Virus record (IMG/VR): IMGVR_UViG_3300045988_130724
Location: 12,203-76,202 of that record
DNA from: a virus
Direction: 5' to 3' (one strand)
Length of the DNA stretch: 64,000 bases
Shown here: positions 9,740-63,867 of the stretch, one piece after another
How the letters are laid out: every line of letters begins with the position of its first letter
Position numbering within the stretch: position 1 is the first letter of the stretch
Translations under genes and position numbers: made by a program
The notes under the pieces: model-generated
What the model was told of the DNA's origin: nothing
The model's input: the letters and a program-made list of their open reading frames with translations, nothing else
Database searches by the model: none

Positions 9740-12700
9740 TTACATATTTTTAGTATTATCTACTATCTTATCTAATTTCGATCCTAATTCAAGGATAAGC
9801 TTTGTGTATTTTACGATATCTTCCAAATAACCGTTAGTAATCACATGCTGATTCAAGATGTTACCCAACGTAGCATTGCCCTCCGTTGAGATAGAGACCA
9901 AAGATCCTATGCCGACAACAACATTTATCATTTGGCTCTTTATTTCCTCATTTGAAATCTGCAATGCTGTAAACCTACCGCTTAGTTCTCCTGCATCTTC
10001 ATGTGTCATTTCAGTGCCAAACCCTCGTTGAGAACCGCCTTGTTGGGGTGTGCTATCTCCGGTCCAACCCATAGCATCTTTTAAAGCATTCCGTTCCGCA
10101 AGAGCTTCTGCGACAATGGCGTCCCATTCCGCTTGCGACTTTTCCATTTCTTCCTTGGTTATACCTGCCTTATCATCGTTAGCCTTAGCAAAACTATCAT
10201 ACCAAGCTTGCAACTTGTCTTTGTACTTATTTCCTACCATTGTAGTGAGAATAGCACGTTGCATATATTGCTCAAAATTCTTAGAGAAGTCCTCTGCGGA
10301 ACTGTCCATATTTATAAGCATGTCTACAAAGCTGTCAAACACGCTGTCAAAAGACACTTGCGTAAGTTGTTCTTTGATTTGGTTCTGAATATCCTTTATA
10401 CGCTCTTCGCCATCAATAATCCCTTGCAGATATTCACGTACATCATCATCCAACTTTGACCAAAAAATATCAGCTTCTTTCAGTTTCTCAACTTGTTCTG
10501 CTGACAGGTCGAAAAGTCCTGTCATTCTTCCACTTGTCGCTTTATCAAAATCAGCTCCAAGGGCTTCACGTGCTTGTTCCCATCCTTCCTTGCTCATACC
10601 CTTGCGGATTCGTACGCCAATAGAGTGAGAACCTGCGGATGCACCTGCGTTCAGTCTTTCTTTACCAAGAATACGGTAACTTTCAATACTTTTTTCCGCC
10701 AACTCCAATGCCTCTTTCCCGACCTTATTAGCTTCTACACCGTATGAGGTATTAATGTATTCTTTCTTTTTGTCAATCAATTCGTCCCAAATGGAGTTAA
10801 GCGTATCGTACTGTTCCTTCATAGTGTTGTAGTGCGAGTAGTCAGCACCAAACATTCCATCAAGCGCAGACACAACAGAAGAGATTCCGTTGACTGCACT
10901 CATGGCACCACCTACGATGTCACCGCTCATAATCTGACCGACACCTGCCGCTGTTTGTCCTAAACCGCTAACAGCATCAATTGCTCCTTGTACTTTTGAA
11001 TCGTCAAATCCGAAGATACTCCCTATGTTGGAGCTAAACTCTTTGAGCGGACCGGAAAATTCAACGACTGCATTTCCTATTTTCGATATTCCAATACCAA
11101 TCGCATCCGTATCACCTTTAGCGTTTTTAAGGTAACTGATTCCATTTTTAATGTCCTCCGTAAACTTCTTGAACGGTGATTTACCTGAAAGCGTATCCTT
11201 TAAATTCTTGGTAGAATCGGTAATATCCTTGATGTTGATTGTGCCGTCCTCTATGCTTTTAAGGTCTTTATCGGTAAATCCTACGGTTTTCAAATCTTCA
11301 ACGGTAACACCATTCTCTCCAGAAAGGTATGACACAAGTAGCTCGTACTTATCAATGACAGCTTGAATGGCGTTTACCGACTTGTCGGAAGCGTCTTCAA
11401 AGAGGTCCGCCATTGCCTTGGTTGATTTCCCATATTGTTCATCCAATGAAGATAATTCGCTTGCCTGTCTTGCCCTTGCGGATGCAATCTCTCCATTGTT
11501 ACCCCCCCTCTTTATGATGTCCGCTATTTCATCTTCGTACTTCTGCGTGATAGCCTTTCTCTTTTCCTGGTAATCGCCAAACGCAATGAAGTATTCCTGC
11601 CATGCTTTTTTGTCAGCATCAAGTTTCTCTTTATTTGTGTCTTTTACATTATTCTCATATTTCTTGTAAGCGTTTTCTTCGGATTCAGCCAACTGAGCTT
11701 CCTGCTCATCAGTAAGTTTGCCTTTTTGCTTTTTATTCCATTCCTCACGTTGCTTTTCAATGGCATCAAGCTCTTTCTGATAATCCAAATCTATCTGCGC
11801 CAACTTCTTTTCAGTTCCGTCAGCCATGAGATTTATTTCGTCCTGTTGGTTCTTACGACGGATGGAAAGAAGTTCTTCAGCAAGTTGCTCTTGCTGTTTT
11901 AGTCTGTCTTCCACTTCTTTTTTGGAATGGCTTTTTTGTTTAGCCAGTTCATTTCCAGTTGCTCCACCCAACTCTTTATATGCCTTTTCAGCGGATAACA
12001 TCTTATCCCTGGATTCTTTCACCTGTTTCGATGTAGCCGCCTTATCTTTGATTAATGCCTCATATCCTTTTTTCGCTTTTTCCCATTCGGCTTTAGCATT
12101 TGCCAAATCTTCCTGATATGTAGTTTCTTTTGTTCCCTGTTTGTTCTCAATTTCCAATTGGGCATTGATTTCCGACAAGACATCCTTTCTTGCGTTTGCC
12201 AATTCATTTTTCAGGTCTTCGATACGCTGTGCCTGAACCTTCATCTCGGAACGGTTGTTCTCCTTCTTAGCTAAATTATAAGCCCATTCCGCACTTTTTA
12301 TCTGTTGTTCCAAGGACTCGACTATAGCCTGCTTTGACTGTGTTCTAGATTTTACAACTTCTTCATTATATGCCTTCCAAAAACCAATCAAATCCTGTAT
12401 ATGACCTTTCTCATCAACATATTTCCTAAAGAGTGCTGGGTATAGTTCCTCAATATCTTTTAAAGCTTTTAGTTTAGTAACATCGGCTTCCACCTCGCTA
12501 TTAATGGTGCTAACAAGACCTTCCAAAATACGTTTCCGATCTTCCTCGTCCGTGTTGAGTTTTTCTATTTTCTTGTTATATGAATCTAAAGCACGTTCTG
12601 CTGACGTTGTATTATCAGATAACGACCACATTGCAACTCCAAGCCCTACAACAGCAGCTGACAATAACACATACGGATTAGTAAGCATAACAGCGTTCAA

Positions 12701-13690
12701 AGCTTTTTGTGCCGTTGTTTGCAAAACCAGCCATCCGTAGTGGGCACGTTCGGCAATAGTTAGAACGGCAATACCTGAAGCTTGTAAAGCTTGCAAAGCC
12801 GTGACTGTCATCACAGCCACTTTATATACGCCATAAGTTGCTACAAGACTAATAAGGATTTTCCCTACTTTCTCATAATTCTCAACCAAATAAGAGACAC
12901 CGGACAGAGCTTCGTTTATAATTCCTTCATTGGCTTTCCCTATCTCATTGAACATGGTGGAAACAGCATCCTCTATATTAGAAATTTGCCCAGTGATTGT
13001 CTTGGACTGTTCTTGCATAAGGTTGTAGAACATTCCTCCCTCGTTTGTAAGGTTTTGGATGACTTTCTGGACTTCCGGGAATCCCACTTTCCCTGCTTCC
13101 ACTAGACTTTTTACTTCTCCTTCTGCTACTCCGAATACTTTTGCCAATTCGCGAATCATAGGAATACCACGACCTGTAAACTGATTTAAATCTGCGGTAT
13201 ATAACCGTCCTTGCGTCATGGTAGTACCATACAAATACACAATATCACCAAGTGGCTGAGAAAGACCTGCGGCTATGTTTCCAAGACGTATCAAGTTGTC
13301 ATTTACGTTTTCAACATTTTCTCCATAAGCAAGAAGTTGTTTAGCTCCATTTGCTACGCCTTGAAGGTCAAAAGGAGTGATAGCAGCCGTTTTTACCAAT
13401 TGCTGCATGAGGGCATTCGCCTTATCCTCACTGCCAAGCATTGTCTTAAATGCAACTTCCAATTGTTGGAATTCTCCTCGGACTTGTGCAATATTTGAAA
13501 TTAATTCTTTTGCAGTAAAACCAGCTCCGAATGCTGCGGCAGCTCTAGTCATACGGTTAAACAGTTCTTCAATACCTAAACCGCTTTGCTCTATTTGCTT
13601 GGACGTGTTTTTTACACCATTCTCTACTTCACGAAGTCTACGTAAGAAATTAGAATTATCACCTGTAATGTCAAAATGTATTCCAGCCAT
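9740..13690 (-). CDS. tail tape measure protein
   Basis: 1316 aa. Long Lys/Glu-rich coiled-coil centre, hydrophobic block VATYGVYKVAVMTVTALQALQASGIAVLTIA, Gly-rich C-terminal part. Canonical position upstream of the Dit and tip genes. Confidence 0.9.
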   Translation of the reverse strand: MAGIHFDITGDNSNFLRRLREVENGVKNTSKQIEQSGLGIEELFNRMTRAAAAFGAGFTAKELISNIAQVRGEFQQLEVAFKTMLGSEDKANALMQQLVKTAAITPFDLQGVANGAKQLLAYGENVENVNDNLIRLGNIAAGLSQPLGDIVYLYGTTMTQGRLYTADLNQFTGRGIPMIRELAKVFGVAEGEVKSLVEAGKVGFPEVQKVIQNLTNEGGMFYNLMQEQSKTITGQISNIEDAVSTMFNEIGKANEGIINEALSGVSYLVENYEKVGKILISLVATYGVYKVAVMTVTALQALQASGIAVLTIAERAHYGWLVLQTTAQKALNAVMLTNPYVLLSAAVVGLGVAMWSLSDNTTSAERALDSYNKKIEKLNTDEEDRKRILEGLVSTINSEVEADVTKLKALKDIEELYPALFRKYVDEKGHIQDLIGFWKAYNEEVVKSRTQSKQAIVESLEQQIKSAEWAYNLAKKENNRSEMKVQAQRIEDLKNELANARKDVLSEINAQLEIENKQGTKETTYQEDLANAKAEWEKAKKGYEALIKDKAATSKQVKESRDKMLSAEKAYKELGGATGNELAKQKSHSKKEVEDRLKQQEQLAEELLSIRRKNQQDEINLMADGTEKKLAQIDLDYQKELDAIEKQREEWNKKQKGKLTDEQEAQLAESEENAYKKYENNVKDTNKEKLDADKKAWQEYFIAFGDYQEKRKAITQKYEDEIADIIKRGGNNGEIASARARQASELSSLDEQYGKSTKAMADLFEDASDKSVNAIQAVIDKYELLVSYLSGENGVTVEDLKTVGFTDKDLKSIEDGTINIKDITDSTKNLKDTLSGKSPFKKFTEDIKNGISYLKNAKGDTDAIGIGISKIGNAVVEFSGPLKEFSSNIGSIFGFDDSKVQGAIDAVSGLGQTAAGVGQIMSGDIVGGAMSAVNGISSVVSALDGMFGADYSHYNTMKEQYDTLNSIWDELIDKKKEYINTSYGVEANKVGKEALELAEKSIESYRILGKERLNAGASAGSHSIGVRIRKGMSKEGWEQAREALGADFDKATSGRMTGLFDLSAEQVEKLKEADIFWSKLDDDVREYLQGIIDGEERIKDIQNQIKEQLTQVSFDSVFDSFVDMLINMDSSAEDFSKNFEQYMQRAILTTMVGNKYKDKLQAWYDSFAKANDDKAGITKEEMEKSQAEWDAIVAEALAERNALKDAMGWTGDSTPQQGGSQRGFGTEMTHEDAGELSGRFTALQISNEEIKSQMINVVVGIGSLVSISTEGNATLGNILNQHVITNGYLEDIVKYTKLILELGSKLDKIVDNTKNM

Positions 13691-13736
13691 AGGTCTTTTC
13701 GATAGAAATAGTTCCGTGCAACATCACACGGCATTG

Positions 13737-13744
13737 CAAATATA
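13737..13744 (-). promoter_or_regulatory. -7 box TATATTTG serving the tape measure gene
   Basis: Plus strand reads caaatata, 47 nt upstream of the TMP ATG. Lies between the TMP gene and the divergent plus-strand islet. Confidence 0.45.
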
Positions 13745-13815
13745 ACAATAAATGACATAGTTAGAGCCACAAACACACAAAATATATTCAACTGTTTATT
13801 TTTCCTATCTTTAAT

Positions 13816-13846
13816 TTTGTTTATATTATTATATAAATTACATTTG
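13816..13846 (+). promoter_or_regulatory. Bacteroides-type promoter (-33 TTTG, -7 TACATTTG) of the plus-strand islet
   Basis: TTTG at 13816-13819, a 19-nt spacer, TACATTTG at 13839-13846, and the ATG 30 nt downstream. Confidence 0.55.
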
Positions 13847-13875
13847 TACAATATTACAAAGTAAAAAGCAGAGCA

Positions 13876-15000
13876 ATGGATTTTAAGGATCAAGTTACAC
13901 AGCTATCTGATAATATAAAAAAACAAAAAGACAAGATAGCTACAGAAGAAGCTACAAAAAACGCATTTATAATGCCAATGATTGCAGCCTTAGGATACGA
14001 TGTTTTTAACCCTTTTGAGGTCGTGCCTGAAATGGATTGTGACTTAATAAAGAAAAAAGGAGAAAAAATCGATTATGCCATAATGAAGAATGAAAATCCT
14101 ATACTTCTTATAGAATGCAAACACTGCAAGCAAGACCTAAACCTGCATGACACCCAACTACAAAAATATTTTGTAGCGTCAAAAGCGCGTTTTGGCGTGC
14201 TTACAAATGGAATAGAGTATAGATTTTACACCGACCTGGAGAAAATAAACATAATGGATGAGAAACCGTTTCTTGTCGTGAACATGCTTGACTTATCAGA
14301 TGCGGATATAGAGCAACTAAAGAAATTCCATAAGTCATATTACAATGAAGAGGATGTTCTAAGTACGGCAAACGAATTGAAATACACGACAGAAATAAAA
14401 TCAATATTGAATAACGAATTTGCATCACCTACAGCAGAATTTGTTCGGTTCTTTGCACGTCAAGTCTACACTTCAGGGCAAATCACATCAAAGGTGATAG
14501 ATATGTTTACCCCACTCGTTAAGAAATCTATCACATCTGTTATTAATGATATTATTTCTGATAGACTAAATACAGCTATAAAAAACAGCGAGCAAACATC
14601 TGACTCACTCCCAACGATAGACAATACATCCATAAATACTTCCACAGAAGATACAGAAGAGAAACTCCCGGGCGGAGTTGTATACATGGATAAAGAATCC
14701 GGTGTCGTAACAACACAAGAGGAATTAGATGCCTACAACATCGTAAGAAGCATTTTAAGAAAAAGTGTGGATGTGGCTCGCATAACCTATAAAGACTATA
14801 AAAGCTACTTCGTTGTAAATATTGATAACAGCCAATGGTACTGGATATGCCGTATTTCTATCGGAGCAAGAAAAAAGCAAATAGGAATACCGGCAGACCA
14901 ATATAAGAGTTGTGAATGGATTCAGATAGACAACGCGGATGATATATTCAAATATGCAGACAGACTTGAAGAAGCATTAAAATTAGCAATGGGGGAATAA
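13876..15000 (+). CDS. PD-(D/E)xK nuclease-like protein with HsdR N-terminal-type domain
   Basis: 374 aa. ATKNAFIMPMIAALGY...KIDYAI...LLIECKH...QLQKYF...FGVLTNGIEYRFY gives the D...ExK core and TNG..Y tail I associate with HSDR_N domains. The C-terminal 170 aa are unassigned. Opposite strand to all neighbouring genes. Confidence 0.65.
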   Translation: MDFKDQVTQLSDNIKKQKDKIATEEATKNAFIMPMIAALGYDVFNPFEVVPEMDCDLIKKKGEKIDYAIMKNENPILLIECKHCKQDLNLHDTQLQKYFVASKARFGVLTNGIEYRFYTDLEKINIMDEKPFLVVNMLDLSDADIEQLKKFHKSYYNEEDVLSTANELKYTTEIKSILNNEFASPTAEFVRFFARQVYTSGQITSKVIDMFTPLVKKSITSVINDIISDRLNTAIKNSEQTSDSLPTIDNTSINTSTEDTEEKLPGGVVYMDKESGVVTTQEELDAYNIVRSILRKSVDVARITYKDYKSYFVVNIDNSQWYWICRISIGARKKQIGIPADQYKSCEWIQIDNADDIFKYADRLEEALKLAMGE

Positions 15001-15018
15001 TTATTAAAAGCGTACATT

Positions 15019-15723
15019 ATGAAAAGAATTTTATTTTTTATGGCAATGTTGCCTATGTTTTTTTTAACAGCTTGTTCAGATGACAATGAAATACAAAAAG
15101 ATGGAGAGACAGGAAATGGAAATCCGCCTTTATCTTCCATTGTTGGAACTTGGGAAAGTGGAAATTATTTTGTTTCATTTGGAGAAGATGAATTTTATTC
15201 CGCATATATAGCAGATGAATTTATTGACAGTGGAGACTATAAACAAACAGAAAACGAGGTTACATGTTCAAATAATTACTTTAATAGAAAAACAGTCTAT
15301 ACTATTAAAAACATATCTAAGACAGAGATGAAGGTGCAAGTTTCATATACCGACCTGTATGGAAAAACTAATAGCAAAGACATGACTTTTACAAAGTCAA
15401 ATGAAACCATAGTATCAAAAAGCAACACGTTGGCAGGTAAATCCATTACATCATATTCTTCTTACTTTGGAAATGTTACAAGAACATTTAATTCCTTTAA
15501 TGCTGGGGTAAAATCAGCAACAAAAGGTAGTGCCGCAAAATATCCTTTAAATTTTTTCTATATCTATATCGGAAATAAAATGTATCATCAAGTTCTAAGA
15601 AACAACTCAATTCAAGTTCCTAGTATTGGAGGTTGGTCAACAAACTACAATGAGGTGATATGCTGGGAATTGCATTTCTCTGCCAATGGTTCTATAGATA
15701 GTTTCGATAAAATCGAAATATAA
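15019..15723 (+). CDS. lipoprotein, lipocalin-like
   Basis: Signal peptide plus lipobox MKRILFFMAMLPMFFLTAC-S, and a GTWE motif typical of small bacterial lipocalin-like lipoproteins. Starts 18 nt after the upstream stop. Confidence 0.75.
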   Translation: MKRILFFMAMLPMFFLTACSDDNEIQKDGETGNGNPPLSSIVGTWESGNYFVSFGEDEFYSAYIADEFIDSGDYKQTENEVTCSNNYFNRKTVYTIKNISKTEMKVQVSYTDLYGKTNSKDMTFTKSNETIVSKSNTLAGKSITSYSSYFGNVTRTFNSFNAGVKSATKGSAAKYPLNFFYIYIGNKMYHQVLRNNSIQVPSIGGWSTNYNEVICWELHFSANGSIDSFDKIEI

Positions 15724-15732
15724 AATAAATAC

Positions 15733-15763
15733 ACAATGTCATAGTTTTAAACTATGACATTGT
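15733..15763 (+). terminator. perfect palindrome hairpin after the lipoprotein gene
   Basis: acaatgtcatagttt / aaactatgacattgt arms, 10 nt after the stop codon. Confidence 0.55.
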
Positions 15764-15779
15764 TCTATTTCACCGATAA

Positions 15780-15817
15780 ATCACGAAAGTTTTTGTATAA
15801 CCCTCGTGATTTTTTTG
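15780..15817 (+). terminator. rho-independent terminator
   Basis: 7-bp stem atcacga...tcgtgat followed by TTTTTTT. Confidence 0.6.
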
Positions 15818-15851
15818 CCTTTTATTTGTCGCGCTGTTCTATTTGTCGTAT

Positions 15852-16565
15852 TCAGTCCCATCTCATAGCCTTAATCCTTGCCATATTTGCCGGATCATCG
15901 GCATTGATGATATCACGGTCTTGAGGTATGTTAACTCGCTTACGTTCCTCGTCAGACAAATATATGGATGTTACGGAATCGGCAAGAAGCAATTGTAAAT
16001 TGGCATAGCTAATACCCCAAACAACATATTCAAAAGTCCATCCGTACCGTTGACAAGCTGTATCTATCAATGTGCCATATATACTTTTGCCGCCAAATGT
16101 AAGAGAATTATTATCCTTCTTGGCTCTCATAGCTTTTGCTTGCCACTCTTTTTCCTTATCTATTCCAAGGTGTTTCATATATGCTGATATGTCTCCTTCA
16201 GGCAATACCATAACCAACAGTTGTGCCATGCTGTCATCGTCAAGCTCCTTGCAGAAGAAATCGCACCTTTCCTGTACGAGATTGCAGTCAAACAGCTCAT
16301 CTTTCTTATTGATGGTATGATAGGACAAAATACGGCACACGCTTTCTTTTTTTCCCTGACACAGTCTCAACGCTTCCATATACGGATTAGCCTTGATAAT
16401 TTCCAGATTTATGCCAAGACACTCCACAATCCTTGATATTAGGTATGTTTTTCCAAGAGTAACCGGATATAGATAAAACTGACGTTGATTTACTTTAAAA
16501 CCATGCGGACGTTCAATTATAGTATCCGCAATGTCCATGTCTATAAGTTTCCCATCTTCTAACAT
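15852..16565 (-). CDS. tail assembly chaperone-position protein
   Basis: 237 aa between the major tail gene and the TMP gene (ignoring the inserted islet). No frameshift site identified. Confidence 0.45.
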   Translation of the reverse strand: MLEDGKLIDMDIADTIIERPHGFKVNQRQFYLYPVTLGKTYLISRIVECLGINLEIIKANPYMEALRLCQGKKESVCRILSYHTINKKDELFDCNLVQERCDFFCKELDDDSMAQLLVMVLPEGDISAYMKHLGIDKEKEWQAKAMRAKKDNNSLTFGGKSIYGTLIDTACQRYGWTFEYVVWGISYANLQLLLADSVTSIYLSDEERKRVNIPQDRDIINADDPANMARIKAMRWD

Positions 16566-16781
16566 AACAGTTCTTGTTTTTTTTAATTAATGCCGGATAT
16601 CTTCACAGACAACCGGCATGAAAAGACATATGAACAACAAATCAAATTCTCAAAATCGAGCGGAAACACAGATTCGGACTGTGACCTCATATCTGGTTGA
16701 TATGTGTGCATCCATTACACCATTTCCGCAAAACACGTGAGTACAAAGCCCCCACGCTTGGCATTACCTATCAAAAACTTA

Positions 16782-31642: not shown

Positions 31643-33730
31643 TTACTCCTTTCTCGGCTCATCACCGTATTTTTTTACAAAAGCTTTTAAAATATCATCC
31701 AATTTTCCACGAATACCCGCATCTTGTATGTAATGGAGTTTACCAACACAGCGTTCATGCAGTCTGAACACTCCCCGATACTTCATACTTACCGGTTTAT
31801 CGGTAAATACAGAAGTGGCAATCACCCCACATTCATGTTTATACCTTATACCCAACTCTGATTTAAATTCTGATGAAAGAACGCCCATTATTAGTAATCG
31901 GCTTAACTTAGGCAGAGGGTGGTCTATGACAAAATCCGATTTCATCCAAACTGCATCCATGCCGTATTTGCTGACCTTCAGGAAGTCAAACATACAAGCT
32001 CCGAACACGTAATCATCCAAGAACCACAAATAACAGAACGGAGCTGATCCGAGTATGATGCCTTTCTTCAAGTAAATCATGCGCAGATAATCAATTTCTG
32101 CCATAGAAGCACGAACAAACCGGAGTTTGCTATTATTTGTAAGTACGTAATCGTCTGGCAACCGTTTATATTTTAGAGGGATGATAGTTCGCTTGTTAAA
32201 ACTGCTGTCTCCACTTTCTACCACATTAGACCAAATATATGTGCGTTGGTCTTTGAATACCTCTCTTCTGCCCATAAATCCATGCTGCGAGAGAGCCATG
32301 TAATTAACTTGTTCTTCATCTATTTCTGCATATTTCGTTTTAGTTCGTTCTTGAGATCCAAAATCATCCAATAAGAAACGCTGTAATGCGTTGCTTGTGG
32401 CTTTCATACCGGAATGAAATTCATTCTGATAGATTAATATGTCATTCTCTTTGCAGTTAAGAATTGCATCTGATATATCAGCACAATAAAATACTTCAAT
32501 AGACTTACTTTTAAGGCTGTCTACGAGCTTTTGGTAACGTTCCGTATACTTTTTATGGTAATGCTCCAATTTTGCCATAAAATCGTCATAAAGCGACTTA
32601 TGGTAAATATCTTGTGAGTTCTTATGCTTCTTGATGGCATTGAACAGATGGATAGTGGCAATAATTTCAGCCGGACTTTCAGACTTGATATTCAGAAACT
32701 CATATTCATCATTAAAACGCAGTTCTTTTATCTCTCCCTTGATTGCTTTATACATCATGTAGATAAAATACTCCTTTGTATACACCTTAATCTCACGGTT
32801 GGTAAGTATTTGCTCTATATCCATATAGTATGAGTTTACCACATGGGCTACATCAAACTTGGCCGCTTCTTTCTTGATGAAAGAAAGCATACGATTTGAC
32901 TTCTTGAACATGGAACCCACTATCGTAACATTATCCGAATGTTCTGCCGCCCAAAGCAACGGTTTGTGCCTTTGGGGAACTTTAGAATAATCAATATGGA
33001 ACGCTTCAATACATTTATCAATTGTAGTGAGTTGCTTATATTCCTCCATGTCTTCATGTAGATAGGCATACTCCACGAATGAATACATGAATTTGATTGT
33101 TTCCAGAATTTTATCGAAATCCCAGGAGCTATTGAAGATCCTAAACTCTGCCGTTCCTATCTTTTCAATAGAACATAAATTAAGCCAGTACCGGATGTGT
33201 CCTCTATCTGAACCATTGCTAAAAACTTTCAGTAGATTTTCAATAGTATCTGCTTCCAATACACGCTTCACTACATCCCAAGGAGGGCTTGGTACGAGAT
33301 ATTTTGTTTCCCACCACTCCGCAATATCGAATATCCGTTTGATTGGATATGCAGTATAATAAGAGAGAACAAACATACGCTTGATAACATTTAAGTCCAT
33401 GTCCTTGATGTACAGATGCGCATCAAAGCCTTCATTCCACATAAGATAGCTCCCTGCATCTTTCATGGTCTGAATAAACTCCTTCATTTCTTGTAAATCT
33501 TCTGCGCAATAATGGTACGGTCGAGTATTTATCTCACCGCCAAACTGGCCGTGATGTGTAACTGCTGAACCGTCTGAGTTATTCATCATGGTCAGCTTGT
33601 TATCCGTCCACTTGTAACCTGATGGAAGTGGTATGCGTTGTTTGTCACCATCCGCAAACTCTAGTTCCATACCAAATGTTCGATTGGATATGTAGCCTAT
33701 CCACCTTTTATCTATATTCATGTTCTGCAT
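31643..33730 (-). CDS. amidoligase-like (glutamine-synthetase-fold COOH-NH2 ligase) N-terminal domain fused to about 450 aa of unknown function
   Basis: 695 aa. FGMELEF...NNSDGS...GGEINTRP...GFDAHLYI matches the Amidoligase_2 pattern as I remember it. The rest is unassigned. Confidence 0.55.
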   Translation of the reverse strand: MQNMNIDKRWIGYISNRTFGMELEFADGDKQRIPLPSGYKWTDNKLTMMNNSDGSAVTHHGQFGGEINTRPYHYCAEDLQEMKEFIQTMKDAGSYLMWNEGFDAHLYIKDMDLNVIKRMFVLSYYTAYPIKRIFDIAEWWETKYLVPSPPWDVVKRVLEADTIENLLKVFSNGSDRGHIRYWLNLCSIEKIGTAEFRIFNSSWDFDKILETIKFMYSFVEYAYLHEDMEEYKQLTTIDKCIEAFHIDYSKVPQRHKPLLWAAEHSDNVTIVGSMFKKSNRMLSFIKKEAAKFDVAHVVNSYYMDIEQILTNREIKVYTKEYFIYMMYKAIKGEIKELRFNDEYEFLNIKSESPAEIIATIHLFNAIKKHKNSQDIYHKSLYDDFMAKLEHYHKKYTERYQKLVDSLKSKSIEVFYCADISDAILNCKENDILIYQNEFHSGMKATSNALQRFLLDDFGSQERTKTKYAEIDEEQVNYMALSQHGFMGRREVFKDQRTYIWSNVVESGDSSFNKRTIIPLKYKRLPDDYVLTNNSKLRFVRASMAEIDYLRMIYLKKGIILGSAPFCYLWFLDDYVFGACMFDFLKVSKYGMDAVWMKSDFVIDHPLPKLSRLLIMGVLSSEFKSELGIRYKHECGVIATSVFTDKPVSMKYRGVFRLHERCVGKLHYIQDAGIRGKLDDILKAFVKKYGDEPRKE

Positions 33731-35550: not shown

Positions 35551-35706
35551 TTAACACAAAATTCAATCATCTATAAGTCACTCACAAGAACACCTATGCA
35601 ATCTATTCGGCTTCTTTACAGTCGTGTCAGATGGCAATTACCATCACCCCGTAAACTGCACAAGCTTTTATGTTCTTGCTTCTGCTTATCGCTACTATAA
35701 GGGTTG

Positions 35707-35776
35707 AGCGGAAACAGGGAGTCGACCCCCACTCTTTGGCTGGAATGCCAACGCTCTACCGATGAGCTATTTCCGC
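35707..35776 (-). tRNA. tRNA-Gly(UCC)-like, irregular anticodon loop
   Basis: GCGGAAA-TA-GCTC-ATCGGTA-GAGC-G-TTGGC-ATTCCA-GCCAA-AGAG-TGGGG-GTCGACT-CCCTG-TTTCCGC-T. G1:C72, C2:G71, G3:C70, U73 and UCC fit Gly identity. Total length is only 70 nt, the anticodon loop is 6 nt as drawn, and the T-stem has two G-U pairs. Confidence 0.6.
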
Positions 35777-45719: not shown

Positions 45720-46901
45720 CTAAGCCTCCTTAAGCTCTCCATTGACTAGCATATACCATGTGTCAGCCTTAACCTTTTCCCCGTCAACTTCAAACGCCTT
45801 GACCTCCTTAATCGGGTAGGTATTACCGTTCCATTCTCCACGTTCTGCGAGGACTATCCAGCAACCTATAGCTCCCTTAGCCTTACACCCGTATCCGGCA
45901 GCAAGAGCAATGCTATCCTTGCCTGTGGCTGATGCTGCACCTCGGTCGCCGGTGGCTGATGCTGCACCATAGTTGCCGGTGGCTGATGCTGCACCTCGGT
46001 AGCCTGTGGCTGATGCTGCACCATAGTTGCCGGTAGCTGATGCTGCACCTCGGTCGCCGGTGGCTGATGCTGCACCTTGGTAGCCGGTGGCTGATGCTGC
46101 ACCTTGGTAGCCTGTGGCTGATGCTGCACCTTGGTAGCCGGTGGCTGATGCTGCACCTTGGTAGCCTGTGGCTGTCTTACCCTTCTTCCACTTGCATTTT
46201 TCAAACGTAAACTTAACGGCTGCGTCTACAATACTCTTAATACTTAGTTCCGCTCCTATGTGGATTTTTGAGCAAGCAATTTTCGTATCATCCGTATCTA
46301 CGTCCATATCGCCAGTCCCCTCAACCTCGTGAAACTTATTCATACCAACTGTGGCAGGTGGATAGTAACCGAACACGTCCAACGGATGGAGGCAGAAGTG
46401 AAATCCGTTACCGCAAGCCGTTATATCGCCTGTTTCTTCATAGTCCTTACCTTCTTCGTATTGGAAATCCCTACATGTCATATCGGGGTTAAAACCTTTG
46501 TAGCCTTTGATTTTGACAAACTCCTTTGGCAGGGTAACGTTATCCGGCAAGTTTGCTCTAAGTACCATGTACGCCATGTAGCTGGCATCAAATCCGGCTA
46601 TCCCGGTGCCAATGGCAGTTAGGAGAAATTCCTTTTCTGGGTGCTCGTTAGCGTAATTCCCGAAGTTCCCTAAAAATACGACCAACTCTTCTTCGGTAAC
46701 TTTCTGCATATCCTTGTCCAGCGTAGGAATGGCATAGGACTGACCTTGTATTCCTTCTGCCTGCCCCATAATTGCGCCAAATTTCTCAACTGCCAATCTA
46801 GCTGCACCTCCGGCGTGATTGCCGTTCATGTTGCTTCCAAAAACGAATATTTGATTTTCTTTCAGTTCCTGAATATTCTCAGGTGTTAATTCTCTTTTCA
46901 T
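45720..46901 (-). CDS. three-part protein: Rossmann-like GSN..G.H.GGAA domain, ACGNGFHFC domain, 9-aa tandem repeats
   Basis: The N-terminus IFVFGSNMNGNHAGGAARLA...GQSYAIPT resembles the family labelled A1S_2505 phage non-structural protein (LOG/DprA-like by my recollection). The centre has ACGNGFHFCLHP. Then nine GAASATGxx repeats. Confidence 0.7.
   Translation of the reverse strand: MKRELTPENIQELKENQIFVFGSNMNGNHAGGAARLAVEKFGAIMGQAEGIQGQSYAIPTLDKDMQKVTEEELVVFLGNFGNYANEHPEKEFLLTAIGTGIAGFDASYMAYMVLRANLPDNVTLPKEFVKIKGYKGFNPDMTCRDFQYEEGKDYEETGDITACGNGFHFCLHPLDVFGYYPPATVGMNKFHEVEGTGDMDVDTDDTKIACSKIHIGAELSIKSIVDAAVKFTFEKCKWKKGKTATGYQGAASATGYQGAASATGYQGAASATGYQGAASATGDRGAASATGNYGAASATGYRGAASATGNYGAASATGDRGAASATGKDSIALAAGYGCKAKGAIGCWIVLAERGEWNGNTYPIKEVKAFEVDGEKVKADTWYMLVNGELKEA
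45921..46172 (-). repeat. 27-bp tandem repeat, about 9.3 copies (coding)
   Basis: Unit ggtggctgatgctgcaccttggtagcc. Variation is confined to the 6 nt encoding the xx dipeptide (YQ, DR, NY, YR). Confidence 0.95.
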
Positions 46902-51685: not shown

Positions 51686-51970
51686 ATGAGAATAAAGGAA
51701 CTTTTAAAAGAGAAACATTACACACAACAAGAATTAGCAGATAAAATGAATGTAAGCCTATCTGCTGTTAGACAAATGGTTGCTGCTGAATCATTGACAA
51801 CTGCTACACTTGAAAAAATCGCCACTGCCCTCAACGTCCCCATGTGGCAGCTCTTCGCGTCCCCGGAAGAAGTGCAGCTACCGTCGAACGCTCTTTCTAT
51901 CAAATGCCCACATTGCGGAAACAAGTTCCCAGTTAGCGTGAATGTTGAACTTAAAACAGAAAACAGATAA
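51686..51970 (+). CDS. XRE-type HTH protein with C-terminal zinc ribbon
   Basis: YTQQELADKMNVSLSAVRQM is the HTH. IKCPHCGNKF is ribbon-like. Confidence 0.7.
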   Translation: MRIKELLKEKHYTQQELADKMNVSLSAVRQMVAAESLTTATLEKIATALNVPMWQLFASPEEVQLPSNALSIKCPHCGNKFPVSVNVELKTENR

Positions 51971-51984
51971 ACCAATAACAAGCT

Positions 51985-52416
51985 ATGAATGCAAGAGAAC
52001 TAAGGTTAGGCAACTATGTACGGCTTGCCAAAGATTTCAAGTTCGTCGAAACAAAGGCTCCTGCCGGAACTGTATGCAAGGTGGAAGCCATAAAGCGCAA
52101 CTCCTTGTACCTAGAATGTAAGGTAGGTGACGGAGTTTGCTACAGTGAAGTCCCGGTTCCTATAGTAGAGCCTATCCCACTGACAGAGGAATTACTCCTG
52201 AAAAGCGGATTTACAAAGGAATATGATGGATTCTCTTGCGGTATTGAATTATCATACGGACGTTACCTATATGACGATGGGGCAAATGGCGATAAACTAT
52301 TTGTATCTATAAACTGTGCCGAATATCCTTTATCCCATATTCCAATTGAATATCTAAACCAGCTGCAGAACGTGTATTTTGCGCTAACTGGAGAAGAACT
52401 GCAAGTAAATCTATGA
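51985..52416 (+). CDS. hypothetical protein
   Basis: 143 aa ORF, 14 nt after the HTH gene. Confidence 0.55.
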   Translation: MNARELRLGNYVRLAKDFKFVETKAPAGTVCKVEAIKRNSLYLECKVGDGVCYSEVPVPIVEPIPLTEELLLKSGFTKEYDGFSCGIELSYGRYLYDDGANGDKLFVSINCAEYPLSHIPIEYLNQLQNVYFALTGEELQVNL

Positions 52417-52417
52417 T

Positions 52418-52747
52418 ATGAAACGAATAAAACTCACAAAAGAGGAAAAAGGCACACTTAGGATTGTCGATATGTTCAACGGTAAATGCCCTTCCTTTTT
52501 CCCGTTGCACGCCTACAACTTATCCGTCCGTTCACTTGAAAGGAAAGGATTGGTCAAAGCTGCATATATGGAAGGTGGCGGGGTAGAAGATGCGCGAACC
52601 ACCGATGAAGGGAAGTTATACCTATGTGAGAATCCTAATTTACGAAACCCTATCAACTGGACTGTTATCGGAGTGATAGCCGGAATACTTTCTCTTATCG
52701 TGTCTGTTATAGCCTTATTTATAAGCTGTACCGTAATGTATAGATGA
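52418..52747 (+). CDS. membrane-anchored winged-helix-like protein
   Basis: 109 aa. LSVRSLERKGLVKA is wHTH-like. C-terminal TM segment WTVIGVIAGILSLIVSVIALFI. Confidence 0.5.
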   Translation: MKRIKLTKEEKGTLRIVDMFNGKCPSFFPLHAYNLSVRSLERKGLVKAAYMEGGGVEDARTTDEGKLYLCENPNLRNPINWTVIGVIAGILSLIVSVIALFISCTVMYR

Positions 52748-52784: not shown

Positions 52785-53486
52785 CTAAGAATTAATAAGA
52801 TTGATGATACCTTGCCTACCAATTCCGGTAATCTTTCTATGGTAGATAATATGGCCATTGTCAGCAACCTCTTGCTTTATATCAAACCAGCCAAGGGTAG
52901 AGTATTTGGTGTATGGTACCCACGTCTGATTAACTTTGTATTGTACGCCAAGTTCTTTTAAACGGTTATTAAGTTCAATTGCTGATTTAAGCCCTAATTC
53001 TTTAGCAACCTCCGTACATGTATAGGTTTTATTGACATGAGTAAGAACGGCTACTTGTTTCTCTGCTTCAATGCGTGCCGACCGTTCTTCTTTTAGCTTA
53101 GTGAGAAGCTCAATACCGAAATCTGGATTATTCAATATCTGGTCAATAACATTGTCGGTAGCATATATGCCATGCTTGCGGATTGAAGGAAGGATTTCAC
53201 TAGTTACCCATTTACGGAAAGTTTTAGCCTGTGGCTTACGACTATCAAGTATTACGTCATACAAACCGTCTTCATTAATAAAAATCATTTCTTGTTGTCT
53301 ACCAAGAGAGTCCGGGATGACCTCATTAGTAATGACCTCACCACAAAGTCTTGTTTTTACTTGACTAGGATTTCCTAACTCCAAAACTTTGCAAACATCT
53401 GCAAGACAAAATAAAGGTTCTTCACTTGTTCCGGCTACACGAACTTCACCGAACGATTCATTCTTGAAAATCTGAATATTGTCCAT
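52785..53486 (-). CDS. Bro-N type antirepressor (second copy)
   Basis: MDNIQIFKNESFGEVRVAG...DGLYDVILDSRKPQAKTFRKWVTSEILPSIRKHGIY. The ATG at 53486 is preferred. The track start at 53519 is a GTG. Confidence 0.8.
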   Translation of the reverse strand: MDNIQIFKNESFGEVRVAGTSEEPLFCLADVCKVLELGNPSQVKTRLCGEVITNEVIPDSLGRQQEMIFINEDGLYDVILDSRKPQAKTFRKWVTSEILPSIRKHGIYATDNVIDQILNNPDFGIELLTKLKEERSARIEAEKQVAVLTHVNKTYTCTEVAKELGLKSAIELNNRLKELGVQYKVNQTWVPYTKYSTLGWFDIKQEVADNGHIIYHRKITGIGRQGIINLINS

Positions 53487-53513
53487 AATAAAGTCTTTTC
53501 GTTTGAGGACGTA

Positions 53514-53531
53514 CCGCACTTCTTCATGCGG
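53514..53531 (-). promoter_or_regulatory. 5' leader hairpin CCGCA-N8-TGCGG
   Basis: Covarying counterpart of 27508-27525. Confidence 0.35.
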
Positions 53532-63064: not shown

Positions 63065-63595
63065 ATGGATAATAGATTAAAATATCTAAGAAAATTTCTA
63101 AGAATGACCCAAGCACAGCTTGCTGAAGTATTGCACATGAGACAAAACAGTTATTCTCAGATTGAAATAGGAAATGTATCACTAACAGATAAAAACAAAT
63201 ATTTGTTAGAAAACAAGTATCATCTAACCCCAGGGTGGTTGGATGGGGAAGATGTGCCAATGTTCATAAAAGGTGATGCAATAGCTGGAATTATGGAAAA
63301 AAGACTTCCCATAACCAACAAGGAGAAGCTAAAAGAAAAGATTTTAGAAGAACTTATAGAACAAAAACTGGAAGGTAAAAGTGATTCCATTTCTATGAGC
63401 AGAGAAGTTTTTGAACAGATATCAAGACTTACTGAAACCGTGTTGTCTCAGCAAAGAACTATAGAATCAATGCAGGAACAGAATAAAAAATTTCTTGCCC
63501 AGCAGGAAAATGTTGTCAGATGTGCTCATGTAAGTGGGTCGGATATTTCAACGAGCGACATAAAGAACCAAAATATTAATAAGGGAATAAGATGA
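63065..63595 (+). CDS. cI-like XRE-family repressor
   Basis: LRKFLRMTQAQLAEVLHMRQNSYSQIEIG is the HTH, plus a WLDGEDVPMF tail and a coiled-coil C-terminal half. Divergent from the early operon. Confidence 0.7.
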   Translation: MDNRLKYLRKFLRMTQAQLAEVLHMRQNSYSQIEIGNVSLTDKNKYLLENKYHLTPGWLDGEDVPMFIKGDAIAGIMEKRLPITNKEKLKEKILEELIEQKLEGKSDSISMSREVFEQISRLTETVLSQQRTIESMQEQNKKFLAQQENVVRCAHVSGSDISTSDIKNQNINKGIR

Positions 63596-63867
63596 ATATA
63601 TCAGATGAAGGAATAGCTATAAGCAATCGTTTTTTTAAAGCTATAGCAATATTAAAAGAACAGAAAAAGATCAGAGGGCTTCAGACTTTCACTAGAAAAC
63701 ACAATTTGAACAGATGGAATGTGAACCAAGTAAAGTTTTATCCAGGTCGAAGTGTGTTAAAGCCTGAATGGATTGTGTATATACATGAAGATTACGGGAT
63801 TTCTGTTGAATGGATAGTACTAGGAAAAGAACCTATTTTTGATCCAAACTGGAAAGAGCATAAATAA
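63592..63867 (+). CDS. small HTH-like protein
   Basis: 91 aa, 4-nt overlap with the cI-like gene. The EWIVLGKEPIF tail resembles Bacteroides HTH proteins. Confidence 0.5.
   Translation: MNISDEGIAISNRFFKAIAILKEQKKIRGLQTFTRKHNLNRWNVNQVKFYPGRSVLKPEWIVYIHEDYGISVEWIVLGKEPIFDPNWKEHK

What the first reader, a model, noticed from the sequence alone, without database searches (positions are those of the whole stretch)
13691..15851. Autonomous two-gene moron (HsdR-N-type nuclease plus lipoprotein) splitting tail chaperone from tape measure
These are the only plus-strand genes within 50 kb of minus-strand late genes. They have their own -33 TTTG / -7 TACATTTG promoter (13816-13846) and two tandem terminators (15733-15763 and 15780-15817).

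The insertion lies between the chaperone-position gene and the TMP gene, a junction that is normally uninterrupted in siphoviruses. TMP has acquired its own TATATTTG box (13737-13744).

Gene 1 carries the PD-(D/E)xK core of HsdR N-terminal domains (IDY...ECK...TNG..Y) plus an unassigned 170-aa C-terminal half. Gene 2 is a lipobox lipoprotein with a lipocalin-like GTW motif.

Inference: this is a lysogen-expressed cargo pair, for example superinfection exclusion or a nuclease-based defence. I do not know this nuclease-plus-lipoprotein pair as a named system.
Basis: partly seen in the sequence, partly recalled or inferred. Interest (0 to 1): 0.65.

Follow-up and report, generated by a model that had tools for sequence, protein, structure and literature searches.

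The report
Prophage nuclease plus swappable surface-protein cassette
A gut Bacteroides/Phocaeicola prophage carries, between its tail-chaperone and tape-measure genes, a backwards-facing two-gene unit with its own promoter and terminators: a conserved stand-alone nuclease followed by a slot that in sister phages holds at least nine unrelated exported proteins, so it is a modular accessory cassette rather than a fixed two-protein system.

Summary
Window 13876-15000 (+) encodes a 374-aa protein with an intact HsdR-N-type PD-(D/E)xK nuclease core. Window 15019-15723 (+) encodes a 234-aa lipoprotein. Both lie antisense to about 50 kb of phage genes. They have a Bacteroides-type promoter, two strong terminators and lower GC than the flanks.

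Comparison with about 270 related loci changes the interpretation. The nuclease is nearly fixed at this site in a Phocaeicola dorei / Bacteroides fragilis prophage lineage and is under strong purifying selection (dN/dS about 0.04). The gene after it is swapped among at least nine unrelated signal-peptide or lipoprotein families, between the nuclease stop codon and a conserved terminator.

This lipoprotein also occurs without the nuclease. The nuclease occurs alone, downstream of the repressor, in temperate phages of Firmicutes, Fusobacteria, Actinobacteria and Proteobacteria. A distant relative shows the empty site.

The best reading is a lysogen-expressed moron operon of two independent modules. 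One is a candidate anti-DNA (restriction or abortive-infection) nuclease. The other is an exchangeable surface-exposed lipoprotein. The pair is not an obligate system.

No named defence system matches, and function is untested. Syntenic chromosomal orthologues in Chryseobacterium weaken the defence inference. Interest is moderate.

The parts
13816..13846 (+). Bacteroides-type promoter: -33 TTTG (13816-13819), 19-nt spacer, -7 TACATTTG (13839-13846)
   Evidence: Read directly from the sequence. It is one of 6 such motifs in the window against 3.6 expected. It is conserved in the P. dorei and B. fragilis variants.
13876..15000 (+). Gene 1: 374-aa stand-alone HsdR-N-type PD-(D/E)xK nuclease with a family-specific helical linker and an alpha-beta5-alpha C-terminal domain
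   Evidence: Pfam HSDR_N 4.4e-15. phrog_4225 'endonuclease' matches over the full length, 4.8e-126. The catalytic residues D66/E80/K82 and QxxxY are invariant. dN/dS is 0.04 against the B. fragilis copy.
15019..15723 (+). Gene 2: 234-aa lipoprotein (lipobox LTAC, mature N-terminus CSDDNE) occupying the exchangeable slot. It starts 18 nt after the gene 1 stop, so it is co-transcribed.
   Evidence: The AF2 model is all-beta with pLDDT 84.5. The mature N-terminus matches the LES motif CS(D/E)2 (PMC6222051), and 23 of 26 family members are acidic after the Cys. Only 47 homologues were found.
15733..15763 (.). Terminator 1: a 14-bp perfect palindrome with T-rich tails on both strands. It travels with the lipoprotein module.
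   Evidence: z -7.6. It is absent from variants that carry other gene 2 families.
15780..15817 (+). Terminator 2: hairpin plus T7, the constant right border of the slot
   Evidence: z -5.5. It is conserved in the P. dorei and B. fragilis variants despite their different gene 2.
13737..13744 (-). TAtaTTTG -7-like box 47 nt upstream of the TMP start codon; a candidate re-start promoter for the tail genes
   Evidence: Sequence. It is conserved in all variants, including the distant L004. It has no canonical -33 element, and lone -7 boxes occur at chance frequency.
9740..13690 (-). Tape measure protein gene (left flank of the insertion site)
   Evidence: Homologues carry Pfam TMP_3.
15852..16565 (-). 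237-aa gene in the tail-chaperone position (right flank of the insertion site); function not shown
   Evidence: phrog_11996, unknown function, 1.4e-58. It served as the anchor for 80 sister loci.
63065..63595 (+). cI-like HTH repressor on the same strand as the cassette (context for lysogen expression)
   Evidence: Pfam HTH_3 2.3e-6. Strand map.

Best explanation
This is a lysogenic-conversion (moron) operon at an accessory-gene hot spot between the tail-chaperone-position gene and the tape-measure gene of a temperate Phocaeicola/Bacteroides siphovirus lineage.

A housekeeping-type Bacteroides promoter drives two co-transcribed but functionally independent genes, antisense to the late operon. 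Transcription ends at two terminators.

Gene 1 is a cytoplasmic stand-alone HsdR-N-type PD-(D/E)xK nuclease. Its conserved C-terminal domain probably supplies target recognition or regulation. I infer that it attacks incoming foreign DNA, or triggers abortive infection, in the lysogen.

Gene 2 is a lipoprotein with a Bacteroides surface-export motif. It fills a slot that recombination refills with unrelated exported proteins. I infer that it remodels the cell surface, for superinfection exclusion, receptor masking or host fitness.

Shown: the anatomy, the modularity, the conservation and the sequence signals. Inferred: expression in lysogens and both biochemical roles.
For: Anatomy:
- Promoter, 18-nt intergenic gap, two terminators and a GC dip.
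- The promoter and terminator 2 are conserved across variants.

Insertion and hot spot:
- The empty site is seen in L164.
- Other antisense cargo lies upstream of the TMP gene in L173 and L176.
- Extra pRha/Bro genes are inserted there in B. fragilis prophages.

Modularity:
- The nuclease is detectable in 77 of 80 sister loci, including three with only a 345-nt remnant.
- Gene 2 falls into at least 9 unrelated exported families.
- The recombination breakpoints lie in the last codons of the nuclease gene and just before terminator 2.
- The lipoprotein occurs without the nuclease.
- The nuclease occurs without an exported partner in Streptococcus and Fusobacterium phages.

Lysogeny link:
- The prophage is integrated in P. 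dorei and B. fragilis chromosomes.
- The cassette is on the same strand as the cI-like repressor.
- Homologues follow the repressor/ImmA genes and precede the integrase gene in Fusobacterium, Acetoanaerobium, Enterococcus, Streptococcus, Corynebacterium, Klebsiella, Clostridium and Lacticaseibacillus phages and in a Parabacteroides prophage (L193).

Functional nuclease:
- The D-ExK and QxxxY motifs are invariant.
- dN/dS is 0.04, and the protein is more conserved (89% aa) than the neighbouring 237-aa gene (78%).

Defence flavour:
- One homologue lies beside a Type IV restriction helicase and PDC-S20.
- Rare TerD and SeqA-C-like fusions exist.

Lipoprotein surface exposure: CSDDNE matches the experimentally defined CS(D/E)2 signal.
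Against: - No expression or phenotype data exist.
- PADLOC and NCBIfam give no full-length match to any known defence protein.
- In Chryseobacterium and Aquimarina the nuclease orthologue is a syntenic chromosomal gene. It is 86-92% identical between species and lies beside a TPR-histidine kinase and a response regulator. That pattern looks like a housekeeping or regulated cellular function rather than a patchy defence gene.
- No methyltransferase partner is adjacent, so self-protection is unexplained.
- The nuclease AF2 model is poor (pLDDT 64) and has no significant structural neighbours. The C-terminal domain is therefore unassigned.
- Gene 2 type does not track the distal tail protein. This argues against a simple Llp/Cor-like blocker of the phage's own receptor.
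- Across 38 Bacteroidota genome loci with a same-strand downstream neighbour, that neighbour is exported in 24, against a 26% background. Complete independence of the two genes is therefore not proven.
Confidence: 0.55

Rival explanations
1. The pair is an obligate two-component defence system. An envelope protein senses or blocks phage at the surface and is functionally coupled to the cytoplasmic nuclease effector.
For: The two genes are co-transcribed with an 18-nt gap. Across Bacteroidota the same-strand gene directly downstream of the nuclease is exported in 24 of 38 loci. The background is 26% and the upstream neighbours reach 13%. The pattern recurs in unrelated prophages: L193, L205 and L224.
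Against: The partners belong to at least 9 unrelated families and folds. One nuclease would have to couple to all of them. The lipoprotein occurs with an HTH protein or alone. The nuclease is solitary in Firmicutes and Fusobacterium phages. The enrichment count is not corrected for shared ancestry, because many of the loci are orthologous Chryseobacterium loci. Moron accretion behind a lysogen-active promoter explains the pattern equally well.
Confidence: 0.1
2. Gene 1 is a selfish, homing-type free-standing endonuclease. It has inserted between two conserved essential tail genes and drags neighbouring cargo with it by recombinational repair.
For: It sits between two conserved essential genes, next to a recombination-prone variable slot. 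The family appears at different positions in unrelated phages. PD-(D/E)xK homing endonucleases are known (general knowledge).
Against: It is nearly fixed in the lineage and under strong purifying selection, dN/dS 0.04. It has a host-type promoter antisense to the lytic genes. In other phages it lies preferentially in the repressor operon, not between lytic genes. Syntenic, vertically inherited orthologues exist in Chryseobacterium.
Confidence: 0.1
3. Gene 1 serves the phage or the cell in DNA metabolism, for example repair, recombination, prophage maintenance or induction control. It is not an immunity gene. Gene 2 is an unrelated lysogenic-conversion passenger.
For: The nuclease is more conserved than the adjacent structural gene. 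It is nearly universal in the lineage. It is a conserved syntenic chromosomal gene next to a two-component system in Flavobacteriia. It is often adjacent to ImmA-type metalloprotease/repressor pairs that control induction.
Against: Three sister phages keep only a 345-nt remnant, so it is dispensable for the virus. More distant relatives lack it entirely. Its orientation and promoter are separate from the replication and lytic modules.
Confidence: 0.2

Closest known systems
N-terminal nuclease domain of Type I restriction subunit HsdR (Pfam HSDR_N / HSDR_N_2; e.g. EcoR124I)
   Same: Shares the PD-(D/E)xK core with D...ExK and the QxxxY motif. The Pfam match is above the gathering threshold. RefSeq names the close homologues 'type I restriction endonuclease (subunit R)'.
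   Different: It has no helicase/translocase motor and no HsdM/HsdS neighbours, and is only 374 aa long. It carries a family-specific C-terminal half that is almost never found apart from this nuclease domain. The RefSeq name is an over-annotation.
PHROG phrog_4225 'endonuclease' (temperate-phage family)
   Same: Full-length match, 4.8e-126. Members occur in Porphyromonas, Fusobacterium, Enterococcus, Streptococcus, Clostridium, Corynebacterium and Klebsiella phages.
   Different: Those members mostly sit in the repressor-integrase module. Here the gene lies in the tail module and is followed by a variable exported-protein slot. No experimental characterisation of the family turned up in four literature searches.
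Phage morons / lysogenic-conversion cassettes (Hendrix-type morons; general knowledge)
   Same: It is an extra transcription unit with its own promoter and terminator. It lies between genes that are adjacent in a relative, has a deviant composition and is antisense to the late genes.
   Different: One gene is lineage-fixed and highly constrained, while the second position is a recombination slot with constant borders.
Superinfection-exclusion lipoproteins Llp (T5), Cor (phi80/N15) and Ltp (TP-J34) (general knowledge)
   Same: It is a phage-encoded lipoprotein gene embedded among tail genes, and its product is predicted to be surface-exposed.
   Different: There is no sequence or structural similarity to them. 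The gene 2 type is not linked to the distal tail protein type. Receptor blocking is untested.
Prophage and satellite defence hot spots (variable cargo between conserved genes, as described for P2/P4-like elements; general knowledge)
   Same: A fixed genomic position between conserved genes holds interchangeable accessory genes across sister elements.
   Different: The interchangeable genes here are exported or surface proteins rather than recognisable intracellular defence systems. They sit behind one constant nuclease.

Membership tests
Type I restriction enzyme HsdR subunit | N-terminal PD-(D/E)xK nuclease domain with the QxxxY motif | tested here: met
   Pfam HSDR_N 4.4e-15. D66, E80, K82, Q94 and Y98 are invariant.
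Type I restriction enzyme HsdR subunit | SF2 helicase/translocase motor (ResIII + Helicase_C) and a C-terminal assembly domain | tested here: not met
   No such Pfam hit at E<=1, and the protein is only 374 aa.
Type I restriction enzyme HsdR subunit | Adjacent hsdM and hsdS genes | tested here: not met
   The neighbours are the TMP gene, the lipoprotein gene and the 237-aa tail gene. No methylase or specificity genes flank the nuclease in any of the related prophage loci whose gene tables were read.
PHROG phrog_4225 (phage 'endonuclease') | Full-length profile match | tested here: met
   E 4.8e-126; residues 1-370 match profile positions 2-353 of 357.
Known anti-phage defence systems (PADLOC-DB v2) | Full-length match of either protein to a system component | tested here: not met
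   Only nuclease-domain-level hits were found: mad2 1.7e-5 and Type IIG REase 3.8e-4. The lipoprotein gave a chance-level hit.
Moron (autonomous accessory transcription unit in a prophage) | Lies between genes that are adjacent in related phages | tested here: met
   In L164 the chaperone-position ORFs end at 5920 and the TMP gene starts at 5917.
Moron (autonomous accessory transcription unit in a prophage) | Own promoter and terminator, and deviant base composition | tested here: met
   (sequence-level signals only).
Moron (autonomous accessory transcription unit in a prophage) | Transcribed from the repressed prophage | not testable with these tools
   Only indirect evidence exists: the cassette shares its strand with the repressor, and homologues lie in repressor operons.
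Llp/Cor-type receptor-blocking superinfection-exclusion lipoprotein | Lipoprotein signal and outer-membrane or surface location | tested here: met
   Lipobox LTAC and the invariant Cys. The CSDD surface-export motif is present. Location is predicted, not measured.
Llp/Cor-type receptor-blocking superinfection-exclusion lipoprotein | Genetic linkage or co-variation with the phage's receptor-binding protein | tested here: not met
   The same lipoprotein is found with two different distal tail proteins. The P. dorei-type tail is found with two different gene 2 families.
Llp/Cor-type receptor-blocking superinfection-exclusion lipoprotein | Blocks adsorption or DNA entry of the cognate phage | not testable with these tools
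   Requires adsorption and efficiency-of-plating assays.
Bacterial lipocalin-like (calycin) lipoproteins | Eight-stranded beta-barrel fold or a family profile match | tested here: inconclusive
   The model is all-beta with 16 strands. Foldseek hits to DUF4822, BACEGG_01585, BACUNI_01346 and odorant-binding proteins have E 7e-3 to 0.2, with target-normalised TM-scores of at most 0.49. No Pfam lipocalin hit.

The most novel reading that the evidence does not exclude
The constant nuclease plus 'any exported protein' arrangement is a genuine, previously unrecognised functional architecture in Bacteroidota. It recurs in this lineage with at least 9 partner families, in unrelated Parabacteroides and Phocaeicola prophages, and next to chromosomal orthologues in Chryseobacterium. 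One possibility is a nuclease-anchored recombination slot that diversifies prophage-encoded surface proteins. Another is an envelope-to-nuclease immunity module whose outer component is freely exchangeable.
Probability: 0.12. Interest if true: 0.8.

Novelty: new variant of a known kind. Interest (0 to 1): 0.5.

Why it matters
Temperate phages of gut Bacteroidales are abundant, but their lysogenic-conversion genes are almost unstudied.

This locus offers three things:
- A very widespread, uncharacterised stand-alone nuclease family. Its C-terminal half alone defines about 1,700 clusters at 50% identity. It sits in the repressor operon of temperate phages from at least five phyla. That makes it a good candidate for a new single-gene prophage immunity function.
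- A natural, near-isogenic series of prophages that differ only in which surface-exposed protein they give the host. This is a tractable handle on how prophages remodel the Bacteroides cell surface, affecting phage receptors, outer-membrane-vesicle cargo and host interaction.
- A correction to a systematic mis-annotation: 'type I restriction endonuclease subunit R' is applied to a 374-aa protein that lacks the motor domain.

Tried and rejected
- Megablast of the region against 50,697 phage records found nothing. The phage itself is not in INPHARED, and its capsid protein has only distant matches.
- Sequence and profile searches of both proteins against the PDB found no meaningful relatives.
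- The AF2 model of the nuclease had low confidence (pLDDT 64) because only a shallow alignment could be submitted. Its Foldseek search gave nothing significant. The top, non-significant PUR-repeat hit for the C-terminal domain is not used.
- Foldseek of the lipoprotein against viral models was uninformative.
- PADLOC and NCBIfam named neither protein.
- Literature searches for the HsdR-N solo family in prophages found only annotation-level mentions. COG4748 is grouped with HSDR_N in PMC3424549, but I could not test membership of that COG.
- The BV01/Salyersviridae paper contains nothing on such a cassette.
- I considered that gene 2 is a receptor blocker matched to the phage's own tail. I rejected the strict form because gene 2 and the tail type assort independently.
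- I considered that the TMP-side 5'UTR hairpin (13714-13731) is a regulatory structure. Its folding is not better than shuffled sequence (z -1.0).
Full report
**What is there**

Window 13876-15000 (+) is a 374-aa ORF and 15019-15723 (+) is a 234-aa ORF. They lie between the 1316-aa tape-measure gene (9740-13690, -) and a 237-aa gene in the chaperone position (15852-16565, -). After removing nested spurious ORFs, these are the only credible + strand genes between position 1 and about 51.6 kb. The other + strand genes are an HTH-led trio at 51686-52747 and a cI-like HTH repressor plus a 91-aa ORF at 63065-63867. GC falls from about 0.41 to 0.30-0.35 across the two genes.

**Signals**

- Promoter: TTTG (13816-13819), 19 nt, then TACATTTG (13839-13846), 30 nt before the ATG. 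This is the Bacteroides -33/-7 consensus (general knowledge). Only six such full motifs occur in the window on both strands, against 3.6 expected. The element is conserved in the P. dorei and B. fragilis versions of the locus.
- Co-transcription: the two genes are 18 nt apart.
- Terminators: both hairpins fold far better than shuffles (z -7.6 and -5.5) and are followed by U-runs. The first is a perfect palindrome and also scores as a terminator on the minus strand. It could therefore stop late transcription coming from the 237-aa gene.
- TMP restart: this fits the conserved TAtaTTTG box 47 nt upstream of the TMP start (13737-13744, -). That box lacks a canonical -33 element, and lone -7 boxes are at chance frequency (69 observed, 72.6 expected). 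'TMP acquired its own promoter' therefore remains plausible but not shown.

**Gene 1**

- Domain: Pfam HSDR_N (4.4e-15) and HSDR_N_2 (5e-9) cover residues about 24-123. Nothing is assigned to residues 130-374.
- Phage family: phrog_4225 'endonuclease' matches end to end (4.8e-126).
- Conserved residues: in 57 homologues of 35-61% identity the invariant residues are E24, E48, E52, D66, E80, K82, Q94, L95, Y98, T110, G112, D128 and E283. This is an intact D...ExK site with the QxxxY motif of HsdR nucleases, plus one invariant Glu in the C-terminal domain.
- C-terminal half: on its own it finds 1,705 clusters at 50% identity. In the listed hits it is nearly always attached to an HSDR_N domain, although a sizeable group of about 230-250-aa hits cover only this half; two of them were scanned and show no HSDR_N domain. 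Rare additional fusions carry TerD or a SeqA-C-like domain.
- Missing HsdR features: there is no helicase motor and no hsdM/hsdS neighbour. The RefSeq names 'type I restriction endonuclease (subunit R)' on 89-96% identical proteins are over-annotations.
- No named system: PADLOC gives only nuclease-domain-level hits.
- No structural relative: none was found by sequence or profile. The AF2 model was too poor to use (pLDDT 64).

**Gene 2**

- Lipoprotein signal: the sequence starts MKRILFFMAMLPMFFLTAC. The lipidated Cys is invariant in 31 homologues.
- Surface-export motif: the mature N-terminus CSDDNE matches the experimentally defined Bacteroides signal CS(D/E)2 (PMC6222051, read). In 23 of 26 family members at least two acidic residues occur in the six positions after the Cys.
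- Fold: the AF2 model is confident (pLDDT 84.5) and all-beta with 16 strands. Foldseek gives only weak lipocalin-like matches (DUF4822 at 7e-3, then BACEGG_01585, BACUNI_01346 and odorant-binding proteins). The 'lipocalin-like' idea is a lead, not a result.
- Family size: small, 47 proteins, all from metagenomes.

**Comparative evidence**

*The nuclease is fixed at this site.*
- Proteins 96-97% identical (P. dorei) and 89% identical (B. fragilis) sit at the same place, between the TMP gene and the 237-aa gene. They lie in prophages on contigs up to 5.5 Mb.
- In 80 IMG/VR loci anchored on the 237-aa gene, the nuclease is detectable in 77. In three of those 77 it is only a 345-nt remnant. Two of the three loci without a hit simply lack the DNA. 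This lipoprotein is present in only 11 of the 80.

*The downstream slot is variable.*
- The ORF immediately downstream of the nuclease, on the same strand, is always an exported protein, but from at least nine unrelated families (checked by eye):
  - 165-aa signal-peptide protein, 44 loci
  - this 234-aa lipoprotein, 11 loci
  - 167-aa lipoprotein, 5 loci
  - 108-aa lipoprotein, 4 loci
  - 464-aa lipoprotein, 4 loci
  - 290-aa lipoprotein, 4 loci
  - 228-aa signal-peptide protein, 3 loci
  - 148-aa signal-peptide protein, 1 locus
  - 242-aa lipoprotein, 1 locus
- The window differs from the P. dorei type only between the last few codons of the nuclease gene and the conserved sequence that starts terminator 2. 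This is a clean cassette swap.
- Terminator 1 belongs to the lipoprotein module. Terminator 2 belongs to the frame.

*The two genes are separable.*
- The lipoprotein occurs with an 85-aa HTH_3 protein in place of the nuclease (L009). In a different phage it occurs with no nuclease, next to another lipoprotein (L010).

*The site is a hot spot.*
- A more distant relative has the canonical uninterrupted arrangement (L164).
- Other relatives carry different antisense cargo upstream of the TMP gene (L173, L176).

*Selection.*
- The nuclease is under strong purifying selection (dN/dS 0.04 against B. fragilis). It is better conserved than the adjacent 237-aa gene (89% against 78% aa identity).

**Where else the nuclease lives**

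- In phages of nine host groups outside the window's own prophage lineage, eight place the gene in the lysogeny module. There it is co-oriented with and downstream of the repressor (often with an ImmA-like metalloprotease), and where an integrase is annotated it lies upstream of it. These are Fusobacterium, Acetoanaerobium, Enterococcus, Clostridium, Corynebacterium, Streptococcus, Klebsiella and Lacticaseibacillus phages.
- Porphyromonas phages place it beside HicAB, near the tape-measure gene.
- A Parabacteroides prophage has the order repressor, nuclease, signal-peptide protein, integrase. A P. coprocola prophage has lysin, lipoprotein, nuclease, lipoprotein, integrase.
- A Tannerellaceae copy lies next to a Type IV restriction-like helicase and the candidate defence gene PDC-S20.
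- Against a pure defence reading, the orthologue in Chryseobacterium and Aquimarina is a syntenic chromosomal gene. It is 86-92% identical between species and lies next to a TPR-histidine kinase and a response regulator.

**Is the pair a system?**

- The partner's non-homology and both genes' independent occurrence argue against an obligate pair.
- One observation keeps a looser coupling alive. In 38 Bacteroidota genome loci with a same-strand downstream neighbour, 24 of those neighbours are exported. The background is 26% and upstream neighbours reach 13%.
- That count is inflated by orthologous loci. It is equally explained by accessory genes accumulating behind the one promoter that is active in lysogens.
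- The Llp/Cor-style idea that gene 2 blocks the phage's own receptor fails a simple test. The same lipoprotein travels with two different distal tail proteins, and the P. dorei tail type travels with two different gene 2 families.

**Verdict**

- The 'autonomous moron, probably lysogen-expressed' reading is supported at the sequence and comparative level.
- The 'nuclease plus lipoprotein pair' reading is replaced by a constant nuclease plus an exchangeable exported-protein slot.
- The most likely mechanism is two independent lysogenic-conversion functions: an anti-foreign-DNA nuclease and a surface-remodelling lipoprotein. Both functions are inferred.
- Rival readings remain open. They are a coupled module, a selfish homing-type nuclease, and a DNA-metabolism or maintenance role.
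- It is a new variant of a known kind (a prophage accessory hot spot) of moderate interest. The uncharacterised nuclease family is the most valuable lead.

Noticed in passing
window 16658-16729 (-) and 35706-35776 (-): ARAGORN calls a tRNA-Gly (anticodon ACC as printed) between the 180-aa tail-position gene and the 237-aa gene. It also calls a second odd tRNA with an undetermined anticodon in an intergenic gap.
   Followed up: no
window 51686-52747 (+): A second antisense island within the minus-strand genome: a 94-aa Xre-type HTH ORF followed by 143-aa and 109-aa ORFs with no Pfam hits. It lies next to a Bro-N/ANT antirepressor at 52785-53519 (-).
   Followed up: partly
window 31643-33730 (-): A 695-aa fusion protein with Amidoligase_2, DAM-like-phage1 and GNAT-phage-like domains. 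This may be a DNA or protein modification enzyme. A Porphyromonas phage with the same nuclease family also encodes an amidoligase about 1.1 kb upstream of the nuclease gene.
   Followed up: no
window 45720-46901 (-): A 393-aa protein with DUF7666 and collagen triple-helix repeats. B. fragilis relatives carry collagen repeats in the giant tail protein instead.
   Followed up: no
L082, L085, L088 (about 11007-11351) and L093: In L082, L085 and L088 only a 345-nt remnant of the nuclease gene is left. The region between the 237-aa gene and the TMP gene has grown to about 4.3-4.7 kb. It carries a 464-aa lipoprotein, Bro/pRha-like genes and others. L093 carries the same cargo but keeps a full-length nuclease.
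   Followed up: partly
L009 1195-2172 and L176 1546-2744: In two different phage backgrounds a small Xre-type HTH gene directly precedes an exported protein where the nuclease would be. The exported protein is this lipoprotein family in L009 and the 228-aa signal-peptide family in L176.
   Followed up: partly
L238-L268 (Chryseobacterium), L225-L235 (Aquimarina): The nuclease orthologue is a syntenic chromosomal gene downstream of a TPR-histidine kinase and a response regulator. The gene just after it varies between species and is often a small signal-peptide protein with a GRCTG motif.
   Followed up: partly
P0308 and P0212 (representative-library proteins): Rare fusions of the whole nuclease architecture exist. 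P0308 has an N-terminal TerD domain. P0212 has a weak C-terminal SeqA-C-like domain.
   Followed up: no
window 13714-13731 (-): A hairpin, CCGTGTGATGTTGCACGG, lies in the TMP 5' leader. It is conserved in the P. dorei and B. fragilis variants. Its folding energy is not better than shuffled sequence (z -1.0).
   Followed up: yes
window 63592-63867 (+); L193 5565-5819; L195 5116-5601: A conserved small ORF (N-terminus MxISxEGIAIxxRFF...) lies between the repressor-side genes and the integrase gene in the L193 and L195 Bacteroidales prophages. In the window it follows the repressor gene at the right end, where the window stops before any integrase gene. It may be an excisionase or regulator.
   Followed up: no
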